64,000 bases of DNA from a phage, in the sequence record PZ445489.1. One strand, 5' to 3'. The position numbers were made by a program, and so were the translations under genes. Shown one piece after another: positions 5,444 through 43,374 of the stretch. Position 1 is the stretch's first letter. Each line of letters starts with the position of its first letter. The notes beneath the pieces are model-generated. The model was given only the letters and a program-made list of their open reading frames with translations, was not told the DNA's origin and did not search any database.

Positions 5444-6209
5444 TATTATTTTTCTCCAATAGTTCTTTAATCGACAGGATTTCTATCCCATTCGTTTCGG
5501 CTTTCTTATAAGATGAGGAAGAACGCTTCGATTCATCCTCACAGATTAGGTATTTGACGTCTTTGGTAACGGATTTCTTAACCGTATATCCTAGACCTTC
5601 TAAATAGTTTGTTGCATCCGTTCTATTTGCAAAATCTTGCAAAGATCCGGTAATACATACCGCGATTCCATTTGGCTGGGCAACTAATTCATCTGCAATG
5701 ACGGTTTTAGCTTTAGCACCAGTTGAGAATTTCCACGGTAGTTCGATAACATCCTTGCCTTGTGGGGAACTTAGCCAGGCTTTGTAGTTTTCTCCAGCCT
5801 TGCCGTCAGCCTTCACATCGTGGAAGCTAGTGCAATTTTGGGATAATTTCTTTGCTGCAACCTCTCCGATTAGGGGGATTCCTAAAGAACCGAGAACTGA
5901 ACCAAAGTCAATGTCTCCGCGAACTTTAGTGTTTAATTCGCTAATTAATTTAGCGGCAACCTTGCTACCCACTGCTCTAACCAAATCTTCTTCGGTTAGG
6001 TAAAATAGTTCTGAAATCTTCGTCAGCTCCAGCTTCTCAATAGTTTTTGGGCCAAAGCCCTTTAACTTCATTTTTGTACAAAAGTTCTCAATTAGCTTAC
6101 TTGATTGCGCTGGACAGTTGGACTTATTCCTACAGAATAATTGCCCGTTGACAAGATCTAGCTTAGAACCACAAGAGGGACATTGTGTTGGAATTTCGAT
6201 TTTCATCAA
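5436..6209 (-). CDS. ligB: NAD-dependent DNA ligase, C-terminal subunit (Zn finger, HhH, BRCT)
   Basis: CPSCGSKL...C..NKSNCP zinc ribbon, HhH-like GFGPKTIEKL, C-terminal BRCT-like segment GIAVCITGSL; separate ORF from the adenylation domain. Confidence 0.8.
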   Translation of the reverse strand: MMKIEIPTQCPSCGSKLDLVNGQLFCRNKSNCPAQSSKLIENFCTKMKLKGFGPKTIEKLELTKISELFYLTEEDLVRAVGSKVAAKLISELNTKVRGDIDFGSVLGSLGIPLIGEVAAKKLSQNCTSFHDVKADGKAGENYKAWLSSPQGKDVIELPWKFSTGAKAKTVIADELVAQPNGIAVCITGSLQDFANRTDATNYLEGLGYTVKKSVTKDVKYLICEDESKRSSSSYKKAETNGIEILSIKELLEKNNNV

Positions 6210-35424: not shown

Positions 35425-35943
35425 ATGAATGTTGATGAGCTAACACAGCACCTCTTATCTAGAGGATTTGATACAGATAAATATCATTGCTGGTTAAGTC
35501 CGGAAGGATGGCTAACAGTCCCGTTGTATGACTTCTCTGGGATGTTGAGGGGCTATCAAACTTATAATCCTTCTGCTCCAAAAGGTCATGGTAAGTGCCC
35601 CTTTGAAGCTAAATACTTTACTTATTCTACTACCCAGTGTGTATGGGGACTAGAAACTCTCAATGGAGATGAAAAAGTAGTATTGATTGCTGAATCTGTA
35701 TTTAAGGCAGTTGCGTTACATAATGCTGGTTATCCAGCCCTAGCAATGTTGGGTTCTTCTCCAGGAAAAGCGTTATTAAAGCAACTGAAATTACTACCTT
35801 TTAAATTGGTAGCTGTCGGAGATAATGATCCTGCGGGTGAAAAATTTGCTAGAAAATTAAACGGCTTTGTTTCTCCCGTAGATGTGGATGAGATGTCTAC
35901 CGAAAACTTGAAAAATTTTCTTGCTATGAAGCTAAATTTCTAA
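35425..35943 (+). CDS. standalone Toprim-domain protein
   Basis: VVLIAESVFKAV (Toprim Glu) and LVAVGDNDPAGEKFA (DxD) motifs; ATG 35425 with GAAAGAGGAA RBS. Confidence 0.55.
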   Translation: MNVDELTQHLLSRGFDTDKYHCWLSPEGWLTVPLYDFSGMLRGYQTYNPSAPKGHGKCPFEAKYFTYSTTQCVWGLETLNGDEKVVLIAESVFKAVALHNAGYPALAMLGSSPGKALLKQLKLLPFKLVAVGDNDPAGEKFARKLNGFVSPVDVDEMSTENLKNFLAMKLNF

Positions 35944-35964
35944 TATAATATATCTTATAAATTC

Positions 35965-36059: not shown

Positions 36060-36137
36060 GGTTCTCAAGCTCATATGGTATGAGCACCCGGCTCATAACC
36101 GGAAGGTACGTAGGTTCGAATCCTCGGGGAGCCACCA
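36060..36137 (+). tRNA. tRNA-like, anticodon CAU (Met/Ile2), imperfect T stem
   Basis: Acceptor GGTTCTC/GGGAGCC (2 GU), D stem GCTC/GAGC, anticodon loop CTCATAA, T loop TTCGAAT with 2 mismatches in stem. Confidence 0.45.
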
Positions 36138-36641: not shown

Positions 36642-36718
36642 GGGGGTGTAATCGAATTGGCATAGGTACTGGACTTAAAATTCAGGTTTTGTGGGTTCGA
36701 ATCCCACCACCCCTACCA
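36642..36718 (+). tRNA. tRNA-like, anticodon UAA (Leu-type anticodon on short-variable-arm scaffold), atypical D arm
   Basis: Acceptor GGGGGTG/CACCCCT, anticodon stem CTGGA/TTCAG loop CTTAAAA, T-arm GTGGG-TTCGAAT-CCCAC, disc A, CCA. Confidence 0.5.
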
Positions 36719-36893
36719 AACTAAGGAAATAAGATGTATAGACATCCACCTCCGCCAACACGTCGTTCTAGAGAAGTTATCCTCATGGAATTGACTAAAA
36801 ACTTCAAGGCAACTCTTGAAGATAGAGATCTAGGTACAGATGAAGACGTTGATTTCATTTGTAAACTATTAAAAATGAAGCTGGAGAAACATC

Positions 36894-37100
36894 ATGGCTA
36901 ACCGTGAAATTACTATGCAACGAATCATGACTAAAGGCATGATAGCCGAGGCAGGTATTGAACAAGAAGTAAAAGGCTATTACGAACAGATTAAGACTAT
37001 TATAGACTCTGCTAAAAACACCGGAGAAAAAGAACACGGTGCAGCAATTATGGCTATAACTCTTATTAGCCTAGACTTAGCTGAAGAATCTGGAGTTTAG
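36894..37100 (+). CDS. hypothetical protein (68 aa)
   Basis: ORF. Confidence 0.4.
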   Translation: MANREITMQRIMTKGMIAEAGIEQEVKGYYEQIKTIIDSAKNTGEKEHGAAIMAITLISLDLAEESGV

Positions 37101-37130
37101 CTCCTCCAAACAGAATTTTTAAAAATGTAC

Positions 37131-37160
37131 TTGCCTTTTGCTTTAAATTTCTGATATAAT
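37131..37160 (+). promoter_or_regulatory. early-type promoter
   Basis: TTGCCT-18-TATAAT. Confidence 0.5.
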
Positions 37161-37190
37161 AGTTGTATAAATTGATGAAGGAGTTAACGA

Positions 37191-37466
37191 ATGCAAAATC
37201 GTGTTGTAGCAACTGGTATTGAAAGTGCAATCTGCAAATCCTGGGAAGACTGGGAAGGTGAGATTGAGTGGCTCTATCTCTATAACGTAGATCTTCTACC
37301 GGAGGTTAAAGCTAAATGTATTGAAGCTGGCATGGCTCCAGATGCAAAAGCTGATATTGATATTTCAATGTCTGAACTTAAAGGTCGTGTAATTACTGTT
37401 AGTGATGAGGGCGAAGAAGTTTTCGAACTTCCGTTCTCCTTAACTGTCACTCCTAAGTTCGACTAA
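37191..37466 (+). CDS. hypothetical protein (91 aa)
   Basis: ORF with promoter and GAAGGAG RBS. Confidence 0.45.
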   Translation: MQNRVVATGIESAICKSWEDWEGEIEWLYLYNVDLLPEVKAKCIEAGMAPDAKADIDISMSELKGRVITVSDEGEEVFELPFSLTVTPKFD

Positions 37467-37503
37467 CTAATACAGCACTGAGCAAGTTCTTTAAAATTTG
37501 ACT

Positions 37504-37531
37504 TGCTCAGTGCCTTAAAACTTGGTATAAT
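37504..37531 (+). promoter_or_regulatory. early-type promoter driving tRNA sub-cluster
   Basis: TTGCTC-16-TATAAT. Confidence 0.5.
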
Positions 37532-37596
37532 ATTTACCTAATTTGGAAACATATTTAAAAGTGTTTAAATGAGAATTTTTGAATACTTCTAAATAT

Positions 37597-37687
37597 GTTG
37601 GATTAGTATCGTAGAGGTAGCGAAGCAGACTGTAAATCTGCCGACTCGGAAGGGTCTCGGGTGGTTCGACTCCATCATCCAACACCA
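37597..37687 (+). tRNA. tRNA-Tyr (GUA), type II
   Basis: Acceptor GTTGGAT/ATCCAAC, anticodon stem GCAGA/TCTGC loop CTGTAAA, long variable arm, T-arm GGTGG-TTCGACT-CCATC, CCA. Confidence 0.75.
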
Positions 37688-37694
37688 AATTTAA

Positions 37695-37771
37695 GTCCTG
37701 TTAGACAAACTGGTAAAGTCACTACCCTTTCAAGGTAGGATTTGCGGGTTCGATCCCCGCACAGGACGCCA
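37695..37771 (+). tRNA. tRNA-Glu (UUC)
   Basis: Acceptor GTCCTGT/ACAGGAC, anticodon stem CTACC/GGTAG loop CTTTCAA, T-arm GCGGG-TTCGATC-CCCGC, CCA. Confidence 0.75.
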
Positions 37772-37779
37772 ATTTCTGC

Positions 37780-37856
37780 ATTCCTAGAGTGTTACTGGAC
37801 AGCATGTCGGTCTCCAAAACCGTACGGTCTAGGTTCGAGTCCTAGTAGGTTTGCCA
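37780..37856 (+). tRNA. tRNA-like, anticodon CCA (Trp), acceptor stem with mismatches
   Basis: Anticodon loop CTCCAAA, T-arm CTAGG-TTCGAGT-CCTAG, 3' GCCA; acceptor pairing imperfect. Confidence 0.5.
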
Positions 37857-37862
37857 AAATTT

Positions 37863-37937
37863 GCACCTTTAGCTGAGATGGATTAGCGCTTGCCTGAAGA
37901 GCTTGAGAGGTTCGTTCGATACGAACAGGGTGCACCA
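37863..37937 (+). tRNA. tRNA-like, anticodon uncertain (possibly GAA, Phe)
   Basis: Acceptor GCACCTT/AGGGTGC, T-arm GTTCG-TTCGATA-CGAAC, CCA; anticodon stem poorly paired. Confidence 0.45.
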
Positions 37938-37954
37938 AATTGAAGGAGCTGCTG

Positions 37955-38227
37955 ATGCATCCTGAAAACTTCTTTATTTACTGCGCTGATAAGTCGCTAA
38001 AACGTAGAATTAACAAAGTCTACCATTATCGTGCTAGTCAACAGCCTTATGTATATGCTTTTGACGGTGATCACATTCCATTAGAACAATTATCTTGTGA
38101 TTACATGATATTAAAGAACTTTGACGAGACGAAGATCTCAAGCGTTCACAATCGGCAGAATCCATTAACGTGGAAATATAAGAAGAAAAAGAAAGGCATC
38201 AAATTCTTAAAAAATATAGTTGCTTAG
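37955..38227 (+). CDS. hypothetical protein (90 aa)
   Basis: ATG 37955 after AAGGAG. Confidence 0.45.
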   Translation: MHPENFFIYCADKSLKRRINKVYHYRASQQPYVYAFDGDHIPLEQLSCDYMILKNFDETKISSVHNRQNPLTWKYKKKKKGIKFLKNIVA

Positions 38228-38248
38228 TTTCCAAAAGTTCTGTATAAT
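38220..38248 (+). promoter_or_regulatory. early-type promoter
   Basis: TTGCTT-17-TATAAT. Confidence 0.55.
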
Positions 38249-38296
38249 AATTACATAAATTGAACTGGAGAAGCAACATGACAGAACAAGATAAAC

Positions 38297-38372
38297 CGAC
38301 CGTTGGCTGAATGGCTTAGGCGAAGGATTGCAAATCCTTTTTATGTGAGTTCAAATCTCATGCGGTCGTCCA
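38297..38372 (+). tRNA. tRNA-Cys (GCA)
   Basis: Acceptor CGACCGT/GCGGTCG, anticodon stem AAGGA/TCCTT loop TTGCAAA, T-arm GTGAG-TTCAAAT-CTCAT, CCA. Confidence 0.7.
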
Positions 38373-38379
38373 AATTTTA

Positions 38380-38462
38380 GGGTCGTTAGCCAAGCGGTTT
38401 GGCGGTGGACTGTTAATCCATGTCGAAAGACAACGTAGGTTCGAATCCTACACGGCCCGCCA
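38380..38462 (+). tRNA. tRNA-Asn (GUU) with extended variable region
   Basis: Acceptor GGGTCGT/ACGGCCC, anticodon loop CTGTTAA, T-arm GTAGG-TTCGAAT-CCTAC, CCA. Confidence 0.6.
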
Positions 38463-38564
38463 AATTCTGTGTAGAGTTAAGTAAACCGGTAGCCAACCAG
38501 CTATCATTGCTGACATCGAATTCAGCCACAGATACCATTTTCATTAATAACTGAGGAAACAAGC

Positions 38565-38750
38565 ATGTCCAAGAATGTAATTGCGCAGCTAGAAGTTCAT
38601 CGTGATAGCACTATCAACAATATTGAAGTTGAAAAGAAATACATCGAAGAACTTAAACATGATATACTAGTGAGTCTCAACCGTCTTAATGTACGAAAAG
38701 AGTTTCTTAAAGAACTTAATGCAGCTATTGAAAAACTCAAAGCTGAGTAA
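38565..38750 (+). CDS. hypothetical protein (61 aa)
   Basis: ORF with GAGGAAACAAGC RBS. Confidence 0.4.
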   Translation: MSKNVIAQLEVHRDSTINNIEVEKKYIEELKHDILVSLNRLNVRKEFLKELNAAIEKLKAE

Positions 38751-38759
38751 ATGAATTAT

Positions 38760-38836
38760 GCGACCGGGGCTGGCTTGGTAATGGTACTCCCCTGTCACGG
38801 GAGAGAATGTGGGTTCAAATCCCATCGGTCGCGCCA
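38760..38836 (+). tRNA. tRNA-Asp (GUC)
   Basis: Acceptor GCGACCG/CGGTCGC, anticodon stem CTCCC/GGGAG loop CTGTCAC, T-arm GTGGG-TTCAAAT-CCCAT, CCA. Confidence 0.8.
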
Positions 38837-38862
38837 AATTAATTTAGTATGAGAAATATGCT

Positions 38863-39210
38863 ATGATTAATGCTAAAGAAGAATTGTTACTTGCCCTAAA
38901 GAATACTAATTCTGAAGTTAAGTGTATTAAGATAGAATTCGGTTATTATGGAGACAAAGAAGTTTGGGTATTACCCGTAGGTTATACAGAAAAAGATATT
39001 GAAGATTTTCTAAATAATCTAGACTTTAAATATGATTCTGGTTTCGGTGGACAATTGCTTTATGGTAACGTATGGTTTACTGATGGAACTTGGTTAGAAC
39101 GTGGTGAATATGATGGTTCTGAATGGTGGGAATATAAGACTACACCAGCAATTCCAGAGGAATGCCGAACAATTAATGGTGAAGTAGATCGTACTTTACT
39201 ATTAAATTAA
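38863..39210 (+). CDS. hypothetical protein (115 aa)
   Basis: ORF. Confidence 0.5.
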   Translation: MINAKEELLLALKNTNSEVKCIKIEFGYYGDKEVWVLPVGYTEKDIEDFLNNLDFKYDSGFGGQLLYGNVWFTDGTWLERGEYDGSEWWEYKTTPAIPEECRTINGEVDRTLLLN

Positions 39211-39450
39211 CAAAATCTCAGTGCAGAACACGGAGCTAGCAATTCGGAAGTGCTGACTCATGATAAGCTGCCTATGTACTTGCGAAGCGGTCGTGTCCAA
39301 GACTCGGACTCTTGCACTGAAAACAATCAAACATTCTAGCGTGGTTGATGGGGAAACCAGCTTGGCTAGGGCAGAAGCTCGTTCGATTCGAGTGAAAGAA
39401 TGGTTCTCGTAAGTCCGCACAAGTGATAGCAGGTTCGAGTCCTGTCTAGA

Positions 39451-39642
39451 ATGACATATTCTGGAGGTTTTGTGAATTACAAAGAATTAGATCTTTTAGC
39501 AAATAAATTCACAGAGCTATCTGATAACGTTGTATCAAAGGACTCCAACATAGATAATTTTATTACTGAATATCGTGATGGTATAATCTCTAAACAAGAG
39601 TTGTTAGATAAAACGTATAAATATTTAAAGGGGTTCAGCTAA
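39451..39642 (+). CDS. hypothetical protein (63 aa)
   Basis: ORF. Confidence 0.4.
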   Translation: MTYSGGFVNYKELDLLANKFTELSDNVVSKDSNIDNFITEYRDGIISKQELLDKTYKYLKGFS

Positions 39643-39953
39643 ACGGTTAAGCACTGTCCTACTTCGGACAGAGGGAGTAACACGTAGTCTCCCAAACTCC
39701 CCCAAATTTAGATTTCTGCTTCCTAGAGAACGGACTTCTGAATAAACAAGGCGATGAAGTTTCCGGCCGGTTCTAGTCGCTAAAGTCCCTCTAACGGGGC
39801 GTAAGTAAATGAAAGTTTACTTATTATGTAGGTTCCGATAGATCGGCGGGTCTATTCTGGCATTTAAGAGAGGTCTCGCAAACTTCTTTGTCAGCCGTGG
39901 GGTTGGTAGCCTCCAGGTGGCCTACACAATAAGTAAATTTATTAAAAATTCAT

Positions 39954-39982
39954 TTGCTATTCTGCTATATTATCTGTATAAT
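39954..39982 (+). promoter_or_regulatory. early-type promoter
   Basis: TTGCTA-17-TATAAT. Confidence 0.55.
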
Positions 39983-40014
39983 ATATTTTATAAAGTGAAG
40001 AGAAGGAAAGCAAA

Positions 40015-40173
40015 ATGAAACACAAGATAGCTCAAGTTTTTATGACATTATGGTGTATGCCAATAGCTATAACAGCATTTAATCTAGATACTTTTACTAT
40101 AGAAGAAAAATGTATCGGATTAGTTAGCGGCTTTAGTATGCTGGGCTTATCTTTGTTGTGGTTGAAGAAATAA
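40015..40173 (+). CDS. small hydrophobic protein (52 aa, not in ORF track)
   Basis: ATG after GAGAAGGAAAG RBS and promoter; two hydrophobic segments. Confidence 0.35.
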   Translation: MKHKIAQVFMTLWCMPIAITAFNLDTFTIEEKCIGLVSGFSMLGLSLLWLKK

Positions 40174-40177
40174 TATT

Positions 40178-40255
40178 CTCCGTGTAGCTCAGTTTGGCCA
40201 GAGCGTTTCGTTTGGGGCGATAGGGTCGGGGGTTCAAATCCTCCCACGGAGACCA
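40178..40255 (+). tRNA. tRNA-Pro (UGG)
   Basis: Acceptor CTCCGTG/CACGGAG, D stem GCTC/GAGC, anticodon loop TTTGGGG, T-arm GGGGG-TTCAAAT-CCTCC, CCA. Confidence 0.7.
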
Positions 40256-40261
40256 AACAAT

Positions 40262-40339
40262 TGCGGGTTAGATCTCTGGTAGAGATCGCTAGTCTCATAA
40301 GCTAGAAAGAGGTAGGTTCGATTCCTGCACCCGCTTCCA
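40262..40339 (+). tRNA. tRNA with anticodon CAU (Met/fMet/Ile2)
   Basis: Anticodon stem CTAGT/GCTAG loop CTCATAA, T-arm GTAGG-TTCGATT-CCTGC, CCA. Confidence 0.6.
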
Positions 40340-40359
40340 CTTTAATAGAGGATTTCGAA

Positions 40360-40527
40360 ATGAAAGTATTTCGATTAGTAGTAAGTGACAAACGTTTAGG
40401 TAATAATACCTCAAGATCCTTACTTGCACATTATGGTAAAAATTGGGATGAAGTAATGGCAGAGTTTAATACTAATCACCCTTACTTGAAAGTTCACTCT
40501 ATTAAAGAGGTATATAATGGTTACTAA
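40360..40527 (+). CDS. small hypothetical protein (55 aa, not in ORF track)
   Basis: ATG 40360 between tRNAs. Confidence 0.3.
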   Translation: MKVFRLVVSDKRLGNNTSRSLLAHYGKNWDEVMAEFNTNHPYLKVHSIKEVYNGY

Positions 40528-40528
40528 T

Positions 40529-40606
40529 AGATCGCTAGCTCAACTGGATAAGAGTAGCGGACCTTTAATCCGTCAGTTCTGGGTTCGAATCCCAGGCGAT
40601 CTACCA
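40529..40606 (+). tRNA. tRNA-Lys (UUU), C at position 33
   Basis: Acceptor AGATCGC/GCGATCT, anticodon stem GCGGA/TCCGT loop CCTTTAA, T-arm CTGGG-TTCGAAT-CCCAG, CCA. Confidence 0.6.
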
Positions 40607-40610
40607 AATT

Positions 40611-40684
40611 GCTCGGTTAGTTTAATGGGAGAACCCCGTCTTTACACGGCGGTTGTGATAGTTCGATTCTATCACCGAGTACCA
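40611..40684 (+). tRNA. tRNA-like with non-canonical anticodon loop (identity unclear)
   Basis: Acceptor GCTCGGT/ACCGAGT, T-arm GATAG-TTCGATT-CTATC, CCA; anticodon region CCGT-CTTTAC-ACGG (6-nt loop). Confidence 0.45.
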
Positions 40685-40703
40685 ATTAACTCAAAATAAG
40701 GAA

Positions 40704-41072
40704 TTGCAAATGCAATTATCAAACAAGATTCAAGGTTATTTCGGTCATGTGACAATGGAGTTCGCATTGCAGCATGGCTGGGATATGGAAAAAGATCTAT
40801 CGGAATTTTATGAGTCTCATAAAGAGATTGATCTTAGTTCTGTCTATTTGGGATTATCTACTGGTCAAGAACTTACAGAATATGATGTATTCAAGGCAAG
40901 TCAAGGTGAGATAACACCTAGTTTTGCCGAGTTCTGGCTAGGAATTACCTTGAAGGATAATGCACCAGATGAAGGTGTGGTTATGCAAAGTATGCACTCT
41001 GGAAGCTCTGATTACCTTTACGTTCGTGATGTAAAGGAACTACAGGAAATCGCTAAAAATGTACTTGCTTAA
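40704..41072 (+). CDS. hypothetical protein (122 aa)
   Basis: ORF with RBS AAGGAATTG. Confidence 0.5.
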   Translation: MQMQLSNKIQGYFGHVTMEFALQHGWDMEKDLSEFYESHKEIDLSSVYLGLSTGQELTEYDVFKASQGEITPSFAEFWLGITLKDNAPDEGVVMQSMHSGSSDYLYVRDVKELQEIAKNVLA

Positions 41073-41093
41073 TGCTTAATTTCTTGTTATAAT
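41065..41093 (+). promoter_or_regulatory. early-type promoter
   Basis: TTGCTT-17-TATAAT. Confidence 0.55.
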
Positions 41094-41432
41094 ATTTATA
41101 TAAATTGATGCGAAAATAGCTGCCTAGATACCAGGTGTATGACGTCTACACTAGCAGAGCTACCGAAAAAGAGATCCTCAGGATAAACGTCGTAGCAAAA
41201 TTAGTCTGGTATCCATCAATTTAGTTCACTAAGGTATTAGCTCGACCTAGGACTGGCTGCCAAAAAGCACGATCCCTACAATTCGGGAGAAGTTCTAGAT
41301 TAGTCCACTAGATTCAGCGGCAACTGAATAGTGTATCGGGTTTGCGAGATGACGCAGTTCCTTCCGCTCGAAGCGAAGGTGCTGTAGTTACGCCGAGCTA
41401 ATAGCCTTAGTAAACTTACAGGGGTTAACGCA

Positions 41433-41819
41433 GTGTGTACAAAAACATGTAGAGCCTGTGGGAATGAATATCCGTTAACAACCGAATATTTTTATTCGAA
41501 TGGATTTACTCCTAATGGCACAAAGAAGTGGAAGCCAACATGTAAAGCATGTGAAAAAGCTGAACGAGTAGCTGGACATGAAGAATTAATTAAAGAAGTA
41601 TTTCCTGTATTAGAATGTAGTATTTGTGGATATAATAGGTGTAAACAAGCCCTAGATTTCCACCGTACTAATCCAGAAGAAAAGGAATACTCCATTGCAA
41701 GGTTTAGAACTTCTCGTAGAAACAGAGAAGTAGTAATAGCAGAACTTAAAAAGTGCGTACTATTATGCTCTAACTGCCATAGAGAAGTACATGCTGGATT
41801 AATAAATTTGGGCGAATAG
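41433..41819 (+). CDS. HNH endonuclease
   Basis: C-terminal CVLLCSNCHREVHAG HNH motif plus CxxC pairs; GTG start per ORF track; 3' end overlaps tRNA-Ala. Confidence 0.65.
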   Translation: MCTKTCRACGNEYPLTTEYFYSNGFTPNGTKKWKPTCKACEKAERVAGHEELIKEVFPVLECSICGYNRCKQALDFHRTNPEEKEYSIARFRTSRRNREVVIAELKKCVLLCSNCHREVHAGLINLGE

Positions 41820-41884
41820 TGTCAGCGGGAGCACACCAGACTTGCAATCTGGTAGGGAGGGTTCGAGTCCCTCTTTGTCCACCA
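41810..41884 (+). tRNA. tRNA-Ala (UGC)
   Basis: Acceptor GGGCGAA/TTTGTCC (2 GU), D stem GTGT/ACAC, anticodon stem CCAGA/TCTGG loop CTTGCAA, T-arm GAGGG-TTCGAGT-CCCTC, CCA. Confidence 0.65.
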
Positions 41885-41889
41885 AATAC

Positions 41890-41966
41890 GCGTGATTGAT
41901 GGAATTGGCATACATACCGTCCTTAGAAGTCGGGTTTTGAGGGTTCGAATCCCTTGTCACGCACCA
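41890..41966 (+). tRNA. tRNA-like, anticodon UAG (Leu-type) on short-variable-arm scaffold; paralog of 36642 element
   Basis: Acceptor GCGTGAT/GTCACGC, loop CTTAGAA, T-arm GAGGG-TTCGAAT-CCCTT, CCA; shares GAATTGGCATA D-region with 36642 tRNA. Confidence 0.5.
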
Positions 41967-42078
41967 AATTTGATGGTCAGAGTAAATTAAACCTACTATC
42001 TCGGTTGAGCTGTTTTAATGGGTTCGAATCCCAGCGAGGCGTAACTGCCTGGTGTGATAGAGGCATCATCTTATTATT

Positions 42079-42169
42079 GGAAGAGCAAATCGAATTGGCG
42101 ACGAAAACCGCTTGGAAAGTGGCTGACTGGTAAAACGGCTTGAGAGTTCAAATCTCTCCTCTTCCGCCA
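42079..42169 (+). tRNA. type II tRNA, probably Ser (GGA)
   Basis: Acceptor GGAAGAG/CTCTTCC, T-arm GAGAG-TTCAAAT-CTCTC, CCA, 91 nt; anticodon loop assignment TTGGAAA tentative. Confidence 0.55.
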
Positions 42170-42459: not shown

Positions 42460-42828
42460 AAAATTCTTGAAGTATGCCGGAATCGGTAGACGGGGCTGCC
42501 TAAAAGGTTTATAGGGAACATCCACTCCCTGCAACATACCTCATAAAGCGGCTGAGATAAATGGTCTATCTCGTGAAGGTTCAAGTCCTTCTGCTTCTTG
42601 ATACATCTATGGCTCAAAGTGTAACGGTGCTATTTGATGCTCTTGGTAAGACTTCCCCGACATGCGTTCGGGAGTAAGCTGCTAAGACTAGAGTAGAAGA
42701 GTTTCTGAGAGCCGCCACAATTGAAAATTCGTACTCGTCTTGAGCTGCGTGCAATAGGAGATAACTTGATTAGTATTCTAGAACATGCTAATTGAGGAAG
42801 GTTTCGCTAACCCTGCGAGTTTTCAATT

Positions 42829-43282: not shown

Positions 43283-43357
43283 GCGGTTAAGCACACGGGT
43301 TGTGTCGCAGGCCTTCCAAGCCTCGCTGAGTAGGGTTCGATTCCCTCTAGCCGCTCC
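43283..43357 (+). tRNA. tRNA-Gly (UCC)
   Basis: Acceptor GCGGTTA/TAGCCGC, anticodon loop CTTCCAA, T-arm TAGGG-TTCGATT-CCCTC, CCA. Confidence 0.6.
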
Positions 43358-43374
43358 AACTTTAAGGGAACATT

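What the first reader, a model, noticed from the sequence alone, without database searches (positions are those of the whole stretch)
36642..41966. Pair of paralogous tRNA-like genes with Leu-type anticodons (UAA, UAG) on a short-variable-arm scaffold
The elements at 36642-36718 and 41890-41966 share a distinctive D-region (GAATTGGCATA), variable loop and T-arm (GTTTTG.GGGTTCGAATCCC), and differ mainly in acceptor stem and anticodon loop (CTTAAAA vs CTTAGAA). Leu anticodons on class I-like tRNAs with irregular D stems are unusual for bacteria; they could be specialised decoders or, after modification or mutation, nonsense suppressors.
Basis: seen in the sequence. Interest (0 to 1): 0.5.

Follow-up and report, generated by a model that had tools for sequence, protein, structure and literature searches.

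The report
Known T5-like phage leucine tRNAs, short-armed
The two elements are real, already annotated leucine tRNA genes of a T5-like phage; they lack the long extra arm of the host's leucine tRNAs but keep every feature the host charging enzyme is known to need, so they are unusual in shape but ordinary in function.

Summary
36642-36718 and 41890-41966 are full-length tRNAs (Rfam tRNA 57.4 and 47.5 bits). Their anticodons are UAA and UAG, and each has a 5-nt variable loop.

The window is a T5-like phage (Tequintavirus). Both genes are 77/77 identical to tRNAL2 and tRNAL1 of Salmonella phage 5 (AJ604531). That record notes that an anticodon-to-CUA version of tRNAL2 is an effective amber suppressor, so the genes are already known.

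The "irregular" D arm is the normal E. coli tRNA-Leu D arm: three base pairs plus a G13.A22 mismatch, and a 9-nt AAUUGGYAK loop. A73, U8/A14, A15/U48, G18G19 and A20a are all present. These are the published E. coli LeuRS determinants, and LeuRS needs neither the long arm nor the anticodon.

The cognate codons UUA and CUA are 2.2x and 4.4x more frequent in the window's ORFs than in an E. coli sample.

The scaffold is a large family, found in more than 120 viral contigs. 94.5% of its predicted pairs are standard, and about 95% of its members carry Leu anticodons. It is also the solitary chromosomal tRNA-Leu(UAA) of many Actinomycetota.

The suppressor idea is not supported. The two genes are family members, not recent duplicates. 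T5 itself carries an 85-nt long-arm tRNA-Leu(UAG) at the same locus.

In passing I found an unannotated ~83-nt Leu-tRNA type in other phages with an extra covarying helix.

The parts
36642..36718 (+). tRNA-Leu(UAA), 77 nt with encoded CCA; equals tRNAL2 of Salmonella phage 5
   Evidence: ARAGORN. Rfam tRNA 57.4 bits, full length. 77/77 identical to AJ604531 tRNAL2. At least 99% identical in 292 phage records.
36651..36667 (+). D arm of Leu(UAA): A10-U25, U11.G24, C12-G23, G13.A22, with loop AAUUGGCAU (A14 A15 G18 G19 A20a)
   Evidence: Rfam alignment. Same layout as E. coli leuZ and leuW. The 13-22 position is non-standard in 97/103 family members.
36676..36678 (+). Anticodon TAA (reads UUA/UUG), in loop CUUAAAA with A36 A37 A38
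36686..36690 (+). 5-nt variable loop GUUUU; its last base is U48, the partner of A15
   Evidence: U48 is invariant in 103 family members although the search pattern did not impose it.
36715..36715 (+). Discriminator A73, followed by encoded CCA at 36716-36718
   Evidence: A73 is present in 125/125 matches to the pattern, which does not cover that position.
41890..41966 (+). tRNA-Leu(UAG), 77 nt with encoded CCA; equals tRNAL1 of Salmonella phage 5 and BF23
   Evidence: ARAGORN. Rfam tRNA 47.5 bits, full length, with one U30.U40 mismatch. 77/77 identical to AJ604531 tRNAL1. At least 95% identical in 162 phage records.
41899..41915 (+). D arm of Leu(UAG): A10-U25, U11-A24, G12-C23, G13.A22, with loop AAUUGGCAU
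41924..41926 (+). Anticodon TAG (reads CUA/CUG, possibly all CUN), in loop CUUAGAA; position 37 is A where E. coli leuW has G
41934..41938 (+). 5-nt variable loop GUUUU. T5's tRNA-Leu(UAG) at the same locus has 13 nt here
41963..41963 (+). Discriminator A73, followed by encoded CCA at 41964-41966
41810..41884 (+). tRNA-Ala(UGC), 5 nt upstream of Leu(UAG); probably the same precursor transcript (inferred from spacing)
35921..35949 (+). Promoter-like site TTGCTA-17-TATAAT ahead of Ser(GCU)-Ile2-ORF-Leu(UAA); sits where P15b is annotated in phage 5
   Evidence: Consensus scan only; annotation in the related record.

Best explanation
The two elements are the known leucine tRNA genes of BF23/phage-5-type T5-like phages: tRNAL2 (anticodon UAA) and tRNAL1 (anticodon UAG). 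They lie in the phage's cluster of about 26 tRNA genes.

How they most likely work:
- They are transcribed with neighbouring tRNAs and small ORFs, and processed to 77-nt tRNAs whose CCA end is encoded.
- They fold as class I cloverleaves with a 5-nt variable loop.
- The host leucyl-tRNA synthetase charges them with leucine. They keep all the elements that E. coli LeuRS is reported to use: A73, U8:A14, the A15:U48 pair, G18G19 at the right place in a 9-nt D loop, and A20a. That enzyme needs neither the long variable arm nor the anticodon.
- They then read UUA/UUG and CUA/CUG (possibly other CUN codons). These are the Leu codons this AT-rich phage uses far more than its host does.

What is shown and what is inferred:
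- Shown here: tRNA identity, the class I fold, conservation and covariation, presence of the identity elements, the codon bias, and identity to annotated genes.
- Taken from the GenBank record: the anticodon-to-CUA version of tRNAL2 suppresses amber efficiently, so the tRNA body is expressed, processed, charged and used by the ribosome in E. coli.
- Inferred: that the amino acid is leucine, and the wobble range.
For: tRNA calls:
- ARAGORN and Rfam call both as full-length tRNAs.
- Both are 77/77 identical to annotated tRNAL2 and tRNAL1 of AJ604531, whose note reports the suppressor result.

Identity elements:
- The D arm has the same architecture as E. coli leuZ and leuW, and A73 and U48 are present.
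- The review PMC9976931 lists A73, A15-U48, G18G19, A20a and the D/T-loop tertiary pairs as the E. coli Leu identity set. It states that the long arm and the anticodon are not required, and that variants lacking both arms are still charged.

Family evidence:
- 103 distinct class I relatives from viral contigs give 94.5% standard pairs, against 34-47% when the partners are slid. Of 21 pairs, 18 show changes on both sides. U8, U48 and A73 are invariant although the pattern did not impose them.
- In a scan with the anticodon left free, 48 of 54 newly found cloverleaves carry Leu anticodons (UAG, CAA, AAG, UAA, GAG, CAG). All 48 have A73, whereas five of the six non-Leu ones do not.

Codon use and interchangeability:
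- In the window versus a 50-kb E. coli sample, UUA is 22.1 versus 10.2 per 1000 codons and CUA is 19.1 versus 4.3.
- T5 has a long-arm tRNA-Leu(UAG) at the same position after tRNA-Ala, so the two forms are interchangeable alleles.
Against: - No charging or expression data can be produced here.
- The GenBank note does not say which amino acid the suppressor inserts.
- Leu(UAG) has a U30.U40 mismatch and A37 where the host isoacceptor has G37, so its decoding properties may differ from the host tRNA's.
- Single-sequence energy folding does not recover the cloverleaf (z = -1.2 and -1.4).
- T5 variants that have lost 16 of 23 tRNA genes, or the segment containing tRNA-Leu(UAG), still grow on laboratory E. 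coli (PMC11464382). Codon supply is therefore not essential under those conditions.
Confidence: 0.85

Rival explanations
1. Anti-defence spare parts. The short-armed Leu tRNAs are kept mainly because their altered shape and anticodon loop make them resistant to a host or prophage tRNA-targeting toxin. The altered features are the missing long arm, C32, A37 and A38. On this view they would keep translation running when host tRNA-Leu is cleaved or blocked.
For: - T5 tRNA-Lys resists the PARIS nuclease AriB through anticodon-stem changes, and T5 tRNA-Tyr counters a retron toxin (PMC11464382; PMC10644984).
- A toxin that uses a long variable loop as an anchor exists: MenT3 on tRNA-Ser (PMC11541572).
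- Long-arm and short-arm Leu(UAG) alleles coexist at one locus in T5-like phages, with 52 and 162 records.
- The anticodon loops differ from the host's.
Against: - My literature searches found no enterobacterial defence system that targets tRNA-Leu or its long arm.
- The same architecture is an ordinary chromosomal tRNA in Actinomycetota, so it needs no defence rationale.
- The strong UUA/CUA codon bias already explains which anticodons were retained.
Confidence: 0.1
2. One reading: the tRNAs are specialised decoders or natural nonsense suppressors that read stop codons, or that insert something other than leucine.
For: Engineering the tRNAL2 anticodon to CUA gives an effective amber suppressor (GenBank note). 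One substitution (A35U) would turn UAA into an ochre-reading anticodon.
Against: - As encoded, anticodons UAA and UAG pair with UUR and CUN, not with stop codons.
- The sequences are invariant in hundreds of phage isolates.
- In the anticodon-free scan the scaffold is tied to Leu anticodons and A73.
- Convertibility to a suppressor is expected for any tRNA whose synthetase ignores the anticodon.
Confidence: 0.02
3. They are non-functional or non-translational tRNA-like RNAs, such as decoys, processing signals or homing-endonuclease targets, like the 'tRNA-like stable RNAs' annotated in the same cluster.
For: The cluster contains annotated tRNA-like RNAs of unknown function (rna1, rna2, rna3) and homing endonuclease genes. 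The tRNA region is dispensable in the laboratory.
Against: - Both have a full canonical cloverleaf with an encoded CCA.
- All Leu identity elements are intact.
- Compensatory changes across the family keep every stem paired.
- The suppressor derivative works in translation.
Confidence: 0.03

Closest known systems
tRNAL2 (UUA) and tRNAL1 (CUA) of Salmonella phage 5 and BF23, GenBank AJ604531 (bacteriophage 5 tRNA gene region)
   Same: 77/77 identical for both genes. Same order in the cluster: Ser3-Ile2-ORF-Leu2, and Ala-Leu1-Ser2-Ser1.
   Different: Nothing in the tRNAs themselves. The upstream tRNA-Ala in the window is the T5 version, not the phage 5 version, so the cluster is a mosaic.
Phage T5 tRNA-Leu(UAG), T5t10 in NC_005859/AY543070, 85 nt
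   Same: Same locus directly after tRNA-Ala, same anticodon, A37, A73 and a Leu-type D loop.
   Different: T5 has a 13-nt variable region; the window has 5 nt. The stems differ in sequence. T5 has no tRNA-Leu(UAA): the homing endonuclease gene hegA occupies that place.
E. coli tRNA-Leu leuZ (UAA) and leuW (UAG)
   Same: Same anticodons. Same D-arm layout (3 bp plus a 13.22 mismatch, and a 9-nt AAUYGGUAG-type loop). U8, A14, A15, G18G19, A20a, U48 and A73 are shared.
   Different: The host tRNAs have 15- and 13-nt variable arms. leuW has G37 where the phage has A37. Stem sequences are unrelated. The phage tRNA-Leu(UAA) sequence has no BLAST match in 5,426 complete E. coli genomes.
Chromosomal class I tRNA-Leu(UAA) of Actinomycetota (Mycobacterium, Nocardia, Gordonia, Rhodococcus, Arthrobacter and others)
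   Same: 74 nt without CCA, a 5-nt variable loop, an AAUUGGCAG D loop with a 13.22 mismatch, and A73. A paper on M. tuberculosis lists only three of its Leu tRNAs as having a long loop (PMC11541572).
   Different: They are solitary host genes. Most lack an encoded CCA. The D stem is GCCC/AGGC and the variable loop is of the CAAGU or ACAGU type, rather than AUSG and GUUUU.
Engineered minimal E. coli tRNA-Leu lacking the variable and anticodon arms (work summarised in PMC9976931)
   Same: It shows that E. coli LeuRS charges a tRNA-Leu without the long arm, provided A73 and the D/T-loop tertiary contacts are kept.
   Different: Those are laboratory constructs; the phage tRNAs are natural genes with a full anticodon arm.
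Animal mitochondrial tRNA-Leu
   Same: Class I (short variable loop) Leu tRNAs. A73 and A14 are the main determinants.
   Different: Reduced, AT-rich organellar tRNAs charged by a mitochondrial LeuRS. There is no specific sequence relationship.

Membership tests
tRNA (Rfam RF00005) | Full-length match to the covariance model above the gathering score of 29 bits | tested here: met
   57.4 and 47.5 bits, model positions 1-71.
tRNA (Rfam RF00005) | Cloverleaf stems maintained by compensatory changes in relatives | tested here: met
   Across 103 relatives, 94.5% of cells are paired, against 34-47% with slid partners. 18 of 21 pairs change on both sides.
Bacterial tRNA-Leu as a substrate of E. coli-type LeuRS | Leu anticodon (NAA or NAG) | tested here: met
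   The anticodons are UAA and UAG.
Bacterial tRNA-Leu as a substrate of E. coli-type LeuRS | Discriminator A73 | tested here: met
   A at 36715 and at 41963. Present in 125/125 family matches.
Bacterial tRNA-Leu as a substrate of E. coli-type LeuRS | Hinge elements: U8:A14, A15:U48, G18G19 placement, A20a, and a 3-bp D stem with unpaired 13-22 | tested here: met
   Position-for-position agreement with leuZ and leuW. The element list comes from PMC9976931.
Bacterial tRNA-Leu as a substrate of E. coli-type LeuRS | Long variable arm (class II architecture) | tested here: not met
   5-nt variable loop against 13-15 nt in the host. The arm is reported not to be needed for charging, so this fails as a structural hallmark, not as a functional requirement.
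Bacterial tRNA-Leu as a substrate of E. coli-type LeuRS | G37 in CUN-reading isoacceptors, as in E. coli leuW | tested here: not met
   The phage Leu(UAG) loop is CUUAGAA (A37); leuW has UUUAGGU. T5's long-arm Leu(UAG) also has A37.
Bacterial tRNA-Leu as a substrate of E. coli-type LeuRS | Charged with leucine in vivo or in vitro | not testable with these tools
   Indirect only: the CUA derivative of tRNAL2 is an effective amber suppressor (GenBank note).
T5-like phage tRNA cluster genes tRNAL1 and tRNAL2 | Sequence identity and conserved position in the cluster | tested here: met
   77/77 identity for both genes, with the same neighbours. Found in 325 (UAA) and 162 (UAG) phage records at 95% identity or more.
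Natural nonsense suppressor tRNA | Anticodon complementary to a stop codon (CUA, UUA or UCA) | tested here: not met
   The anticodons are UAA and UAG, read 5' to 3'.

The most novel reading that the evidence does not exclude
Loss of the long variable arm in these phage Leu tRNAs may be an adaptation rather than a neutral variant. The 77-nt and 85-nt Leu(UAG) alleles would then be kept in T5-like phages because one of them escapes a host or prophage toxin that recognises the class II arm or the host-type anticodon loop of tRNA-Leu. Alternatively, it may escape a host processing or modification dependency such as m1G37.
Probability: 0.1. Interest if true: 0.6.

Novelty: already known. Interest (0 to 1): 0.28.

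Why it matters
For this window it mainly closes the question. The pair is the annotated tRNA-Leu set of a T5-like phage, and the odd-looking features are the host LeuRS identity elements plus a missing arm that the enzyme does not need.

The wider context is mildly useful. Short-armed Leu tRNAs for all six Leu anticodons are common in phage tRNA clusters, and the same architecture is native in Actinomycetota. This qualifies the statement in the review read here that Leu tRNAs carry a long arm everywhere except animal mitochondria (PMC9976931). Natural 77-nt and 85-nt alleles at one T5 locus also offer a ready-made test of what the long arm is for.

Tried and rejected
- **Single-sequence folding.** The minimum-energy structures are not cloverleaves, and z-scores of -1.2 and -1.4 are uninformative. 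I relied on the covariance model and on covariation instead.
- **A slip in my first collection scan.** The pattern had one N too many. It therefore found relatives with 6-nt variable loops, not the T5 type. I reran it correctly. The slip was still useful, because it exposed the insert-type Leu tRNAs.
- **Recent duplication within this phage.** Rejected, because each tRNA has closer same-anticodon relatives elsewhere.
- **Host or prophage origin in E. coli.** There is no match in 5,426 complete genomes.
- **Literature searches.** I looked for an explicit description of the short arm in T5-like Leu tRNAs and found none in the held library. The nearest items were a remark on a short-loop Leu(TAG) in a mycobacterial tRNA array and the M. 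tuberculosis statement. The 1980s T5 tRNA sequencing papers are not in the library, so I could not check RNA-level modification data.
- **Mukai 2017 irregular tRNAs.** These are not the same as anything seen here.
- **Promoter and terminator scan.** It found no more sites than shuffled sequence gives. I cite only its positional agreement with the annotated P15b promoter.


Full report
**What is there**

ARAGORN finds 23 tRNA genes on the + strand between 32.3 and 44.5 kb of the window.

Rfam's tRNA model matches both from end to end, at 57.4 and 47.5 bits against a gathering score of 29. Both have the ordinary class I layout with a 5-nt variable loop. Leu(UAG) has one non-standard pair in its anticodon stem, U30.U40.

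The two sequences are 70% identical. The shared part is the D arm, variable loop and T arm (83%); the acceptor and anticodon stems differ (44%).

Energy folding of the single sequences does not give a cloverleaf and is no better than shuffles. That is common for unmodified tRNA sequences, and I give it no weight.

**Where the window comes from, and whether this is known**

The 8.5 kb around the genes matches 607 phage records. The best is Escherichia phage vB_EcoD-Elw at 98.9%, and all are T5-like (Tequintavirus, Demerecviridae).

The curated record AJ604531 ('Bacteriophage 5 tRNA gene region') annotates the same two genes:
- tRNAL2: 'codon recognized: UUA; replacement of the anticodon with CUA sequence converts this tRNA into effective amber suppressor'.
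- tRNAL1: 'codon recognized: CUA; identical with its bacteriophage BF23 counterpart'.

Both window genes are 77/77 identical to those entries. Leu(UAA) is at least 99% identical in 292 phage records. Leu(UAG) is at least 95% identical in 162 records. Most of those records label them tRNA-Leu. The genes are therefore already known, and a functional test of the tRNAL2 body in E. coli translation is on record.

**What the 'irregular' D arm really is**

I aligned both genes with E. coli K-12 leuZ (UAA) and leuW (UAG), fetched from NC_000913.3. The D arms agree position for position:
- U8.
- A D stem of three pairs closed by an unpaired 13.22 (G.A).
- A 9-nt loop A14 A15 U16 U17 G18 G19 Y20 A20a K21.

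U48 and A73 are also shared. The only architectural difference is that the host's 13-15-nt variable arm is replaced by GUUUU.

The 2023 identity review (PMC9976931) gives the E. coli leucine identity set as A73, the A15-U48 pair, G18G19 and A20a, and the D/T-loop tertiary pairs. [quoted passage not shown] Every listed element is present in both phage tRNAs.

**Evidence from relatives**

I scanned IMG/VR with a pattern that specifies only the D loop, A22, A26, the YUUARA part of the anticodon loop, class I spacing and the T loop. The scan hit its 120-locus limit. The contigs range from 4 to 179 kb.

In the resulting set:
- 118 of 125 matches have six nucleotides between the acceptor 5' strand and A14, as in a standard cloverleaf. 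111 of them have a 7/7 acceptor helix.
- All 125 have A73.
- 92 have an encoded CCA. None of these features was in the pattern.

I aligned 103 distinct sequences, including the two from the window. On that alignment:
- 94.5% of cells form standard pairs, against 34-47% when the 3' partners are slid by one to three columns.
- 18 of 21 pairs show changes on both sides.
- The 13-22 position is non-standard in 97 of 103 sequences, confirming the three-pair D stem.
- U8, U48 and A73 are invariant without having been imposed.

I then left the anticodon free. Among the 54 well-formed cloverleaves in loci not found by the earlier scans, 48 carry Leu anticodons: UAG 13, CAA 12, AAG 8, UAA 7, GAG 4, CAG 4. 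All 48 have A73. The six non-Leu exceptions (Glu, His, Gln, Asn and an Ile-type UAU) mostly have other discriminators. Counting the roughly 61 loci of that scan that the earlier UAA/UAG scan had already found, about 95% of the scaffold's occurrences carry Leu anticodons.

This is independent support for the view that the scaffold means 'leucine' whatever the anticodon. It also shows that phages have short-armed Leu tRNAs for all six Leu anticodons.

**Not only phages**

The hits were almost all solitary chromosomal tRNA-Leu(UAA) genes of Actinomycetota: Nocardia, Mycobacterium, Gordonia, Rhodococcus, Arthrobacter, Corynebacterium and others. There were a few from other phyla.

115 of 119 have 7/7 acceptor helices, and all complete matches have A73. 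Only five of the 120 loci were tRNA arrays.

A paper on M. tuberculosis remarks that only tRNA-Leu-2, -3 and -5 have a long variable loop. A comparative study of mycobacteria noted a short-loop Leu(TAG) in a tRNA array.

The review's statement that Leu tRNAs have long arms everywhere except animal mitochondria is therefore too broad. 'Unusual for bacteria' holds only for the enterobacterial host. The phage tRNA-Leu(UAA) sequence has no match in 5,426 complete E. coli genomes.

**Are the two a paralogous pair?**

Only in the sense that they belong to the same family. On the 52 positions not fixed by my pattern they are 58% identical. The family mean is 49%, and 26% of random family pairs are at least as similar. 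Each has a closer relative with its own anticodon in an unrelated contig (75% for UAA, 71% for UAG). The shared D loop, variable loop and T loop are the family's constrained core, not a sign of duplication inside this phage.

**The locus in T5 itself**

T5 (NC_005859) has an 85-nt tRNA-Leu(UAG) with a 13-nt variable region, directly after tRNA-Ala. This is the place where the window has the 77-nt gene. T5 has no tRNA-Leu(UAA); the homing endonuclease gene hegA sits there instead.

The window's tRNA-Ala is the T5 version, while its Leu(UAG) is the phage 5 version. The cluster is therefore a mosaic.

The T5 long-arm allele occurs at 95% identity or more in 52 phage records, and the short-arm allele in 162. 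Some phages combine the short-arm UAA gene with the long-arm UAG gene, for example vB_SenS_SB13 and HK6. Natural replacement of one form by the other at the same site argues that they do the same job.

**Why these two anticodons**

I compared ORFs of the window (102 ORFs, 16,220 codons, 39% G+C) with a 50-kb stretch of E. coli K-12 analysed the same way:
- UUA: 22.1 versus 10.2 per 1000 codons.
- CUA: 19.1 versus 4.3 per 1000 codons.
- CUG: 14.9 versus 56.3 per 1000 codons.

The phage supplies the tRNAs whose Watson-Crick codons it over-uses most.

Against a strict need, T5 variants that have lost 16 of 23 tRNA genes, or the segment that includes tRNA-Leu(UAG), still grow on laboratory strains. 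In addition, T5 tRNA-Lys and tRNA-Tyr have documented anti-defence roles. I therefore keep an anti-defence role as a minor rival.

Nothing here points to a Leu-specific toxin in enterobacteria. The differences from the host that such a role could exploit are the missing arm, C32, A37 in place of G37, and A38.

**Suppressor idea**

Anticodons 5'-UAA-3' and 5'-UAG-3' pair with UUR and CUN, not with stop codons. Suppression required replacing the anticodon. This works for Leu tRNAs because LeuRS ignores the anticodon. There is no evidence of native stop-codon reading.

**Verdict**

These are the known tRNA-Leu genes of a T5-like phage: class I in shape, Leu in identity, and most likely charged by the host LeuRS to read UUR and CUN codons. 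Novelty: already known. Interest is low to moderate, and comes mainly from the family context and the natural long-arm and short-arm alleles.

**A side finding outside the window**

My mistyped first pattern turned up about 50 sequences that ARAGORN mostly misses or miscalls.
- Their acceptor strands pair 7/7 only if there are 11 nucleotides, rather than 6, before A14.
- The five extra nucleotides lie at the 8-9 junction, and the variable loop has six nucleotides.
- In 48 distinct sequences, three junction bases pair with the first three variable-loop bases in 100% of cells. The compensatory changes are clear: GC 30 / AU 18 at one pair, and CG 28 / UA 14 / AU 5 / GC 1 at another.
- With the anticodon left free, all 48 distinct matches carry Leu anticodons (UAG 33, CAA 8, UAA 6, AAG 1), and 47 have A73.
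- Rfam's tRNA model gives one of them only 23.9 bits.
- Copies in two cultured phages are unannotated: Synechococcus phage BUCT-ZZ01 and Rhizobium phage RHph_I1_18.

This looks like a third way of building a leucine tRNA and deserves its own study.

Noticed in passing
Outside the window: IMG/VR loci such as L026 7708-7769(+), L004 8163-8213(+), L034 (three copies) and L036 (three copies); also ON615601.1 122321-122403 and MN988519.1 9260-9337: An approximately 83-nt Leu-anticodon tRNA type. It has five extra nucleotides at the 8-9 junction and a 6-nt variable loop, and these form an extra 3-bp helix: 100% paired in 48 distinct sequences, with compensatory changes at two of the three pairs. All anticodons are Leu (UAG, CAA, UAA, AAG), and 47/48 have A73. 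ARAGORN mostly misses it, Rfam tRNA gives 23.9 bits, and it is unannotated in two cultured phages. It is possibly an undescribed tRNA-Leu architecture.
   Followed up: partly
Window 41810-41966, compared with L242 (NC_005859) 5625-5789: At the same site after tRNA-Ala, T5 has an 85-nt long-arm tRNA-Leu(UAG) and the window has the 77-nt short-arm one. The window's tRNA-Ala is T5-type while its Leu is phage-5-type, so the cluster is a recombinant mosaic. Homing endonuclease genes lie beside these sites in T5: hegC next to Leu1, and hegA where Leu2 would be.
   Followed up: partly
Window 36060-36137, 42079-42169 and 43283-43358: Three tRNA genes that ARAGORN did not call in the window. They are exact copies of annotated phage 5 genes: tRNA-Ile2 (CAU), tRNA-Ser2 (GGA) and tRNA-Gly1 (UCC). 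Rfam gives 40.3 bits for the first and a sub-threshold tRNA-Sec hit for the third. The cluster therefore holds at least 26 tRNA genes.
   Followed up: partly
Window 38380-38462: The tRNA-Asn(GUU) is 83 nt. Read from the sequence, it has a variable region of about 13 nt (GTCGAAAGACAAC). This is the reverse oddity to the Leu tRNAs, because Asn tRNAs are normally class I. T5's own tRNA-Asn is annotated as 78 nt.
   Followed up: no
Window 38465-38537, 39332-39456 and 42466-42610: Counterparts of the 'tRNA-like stable RNAs of unknown function' rna3, rna2 and rna1 annotated in phage 5 and T5. rna1 gives a sub-threshold Rfam tRNA hit of 25.2 bits.
   Followed up: no
Window about 41985-42045: A conserved unannotated stretch between Leu(UAG) and Ser2 contains a T-arm-like GGGTTCGAATCCC followed by an acceptor-like strand. 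It is near-identical in phage 5 (one mismatch in the aligned stretch) and may be a tRNA remnant.
   Followed up: no
Outside the window: genome loci L244-L363: A class I (74-nt, 5-nt variable loop) tRNA-Leu(UAA) is the solitary chromosomal gene in many Actinomycetota and a few other phyla. This contradicts the general statement that Leu tRNAs always have long arms outside animal mitochondria.
   Followed up: partly
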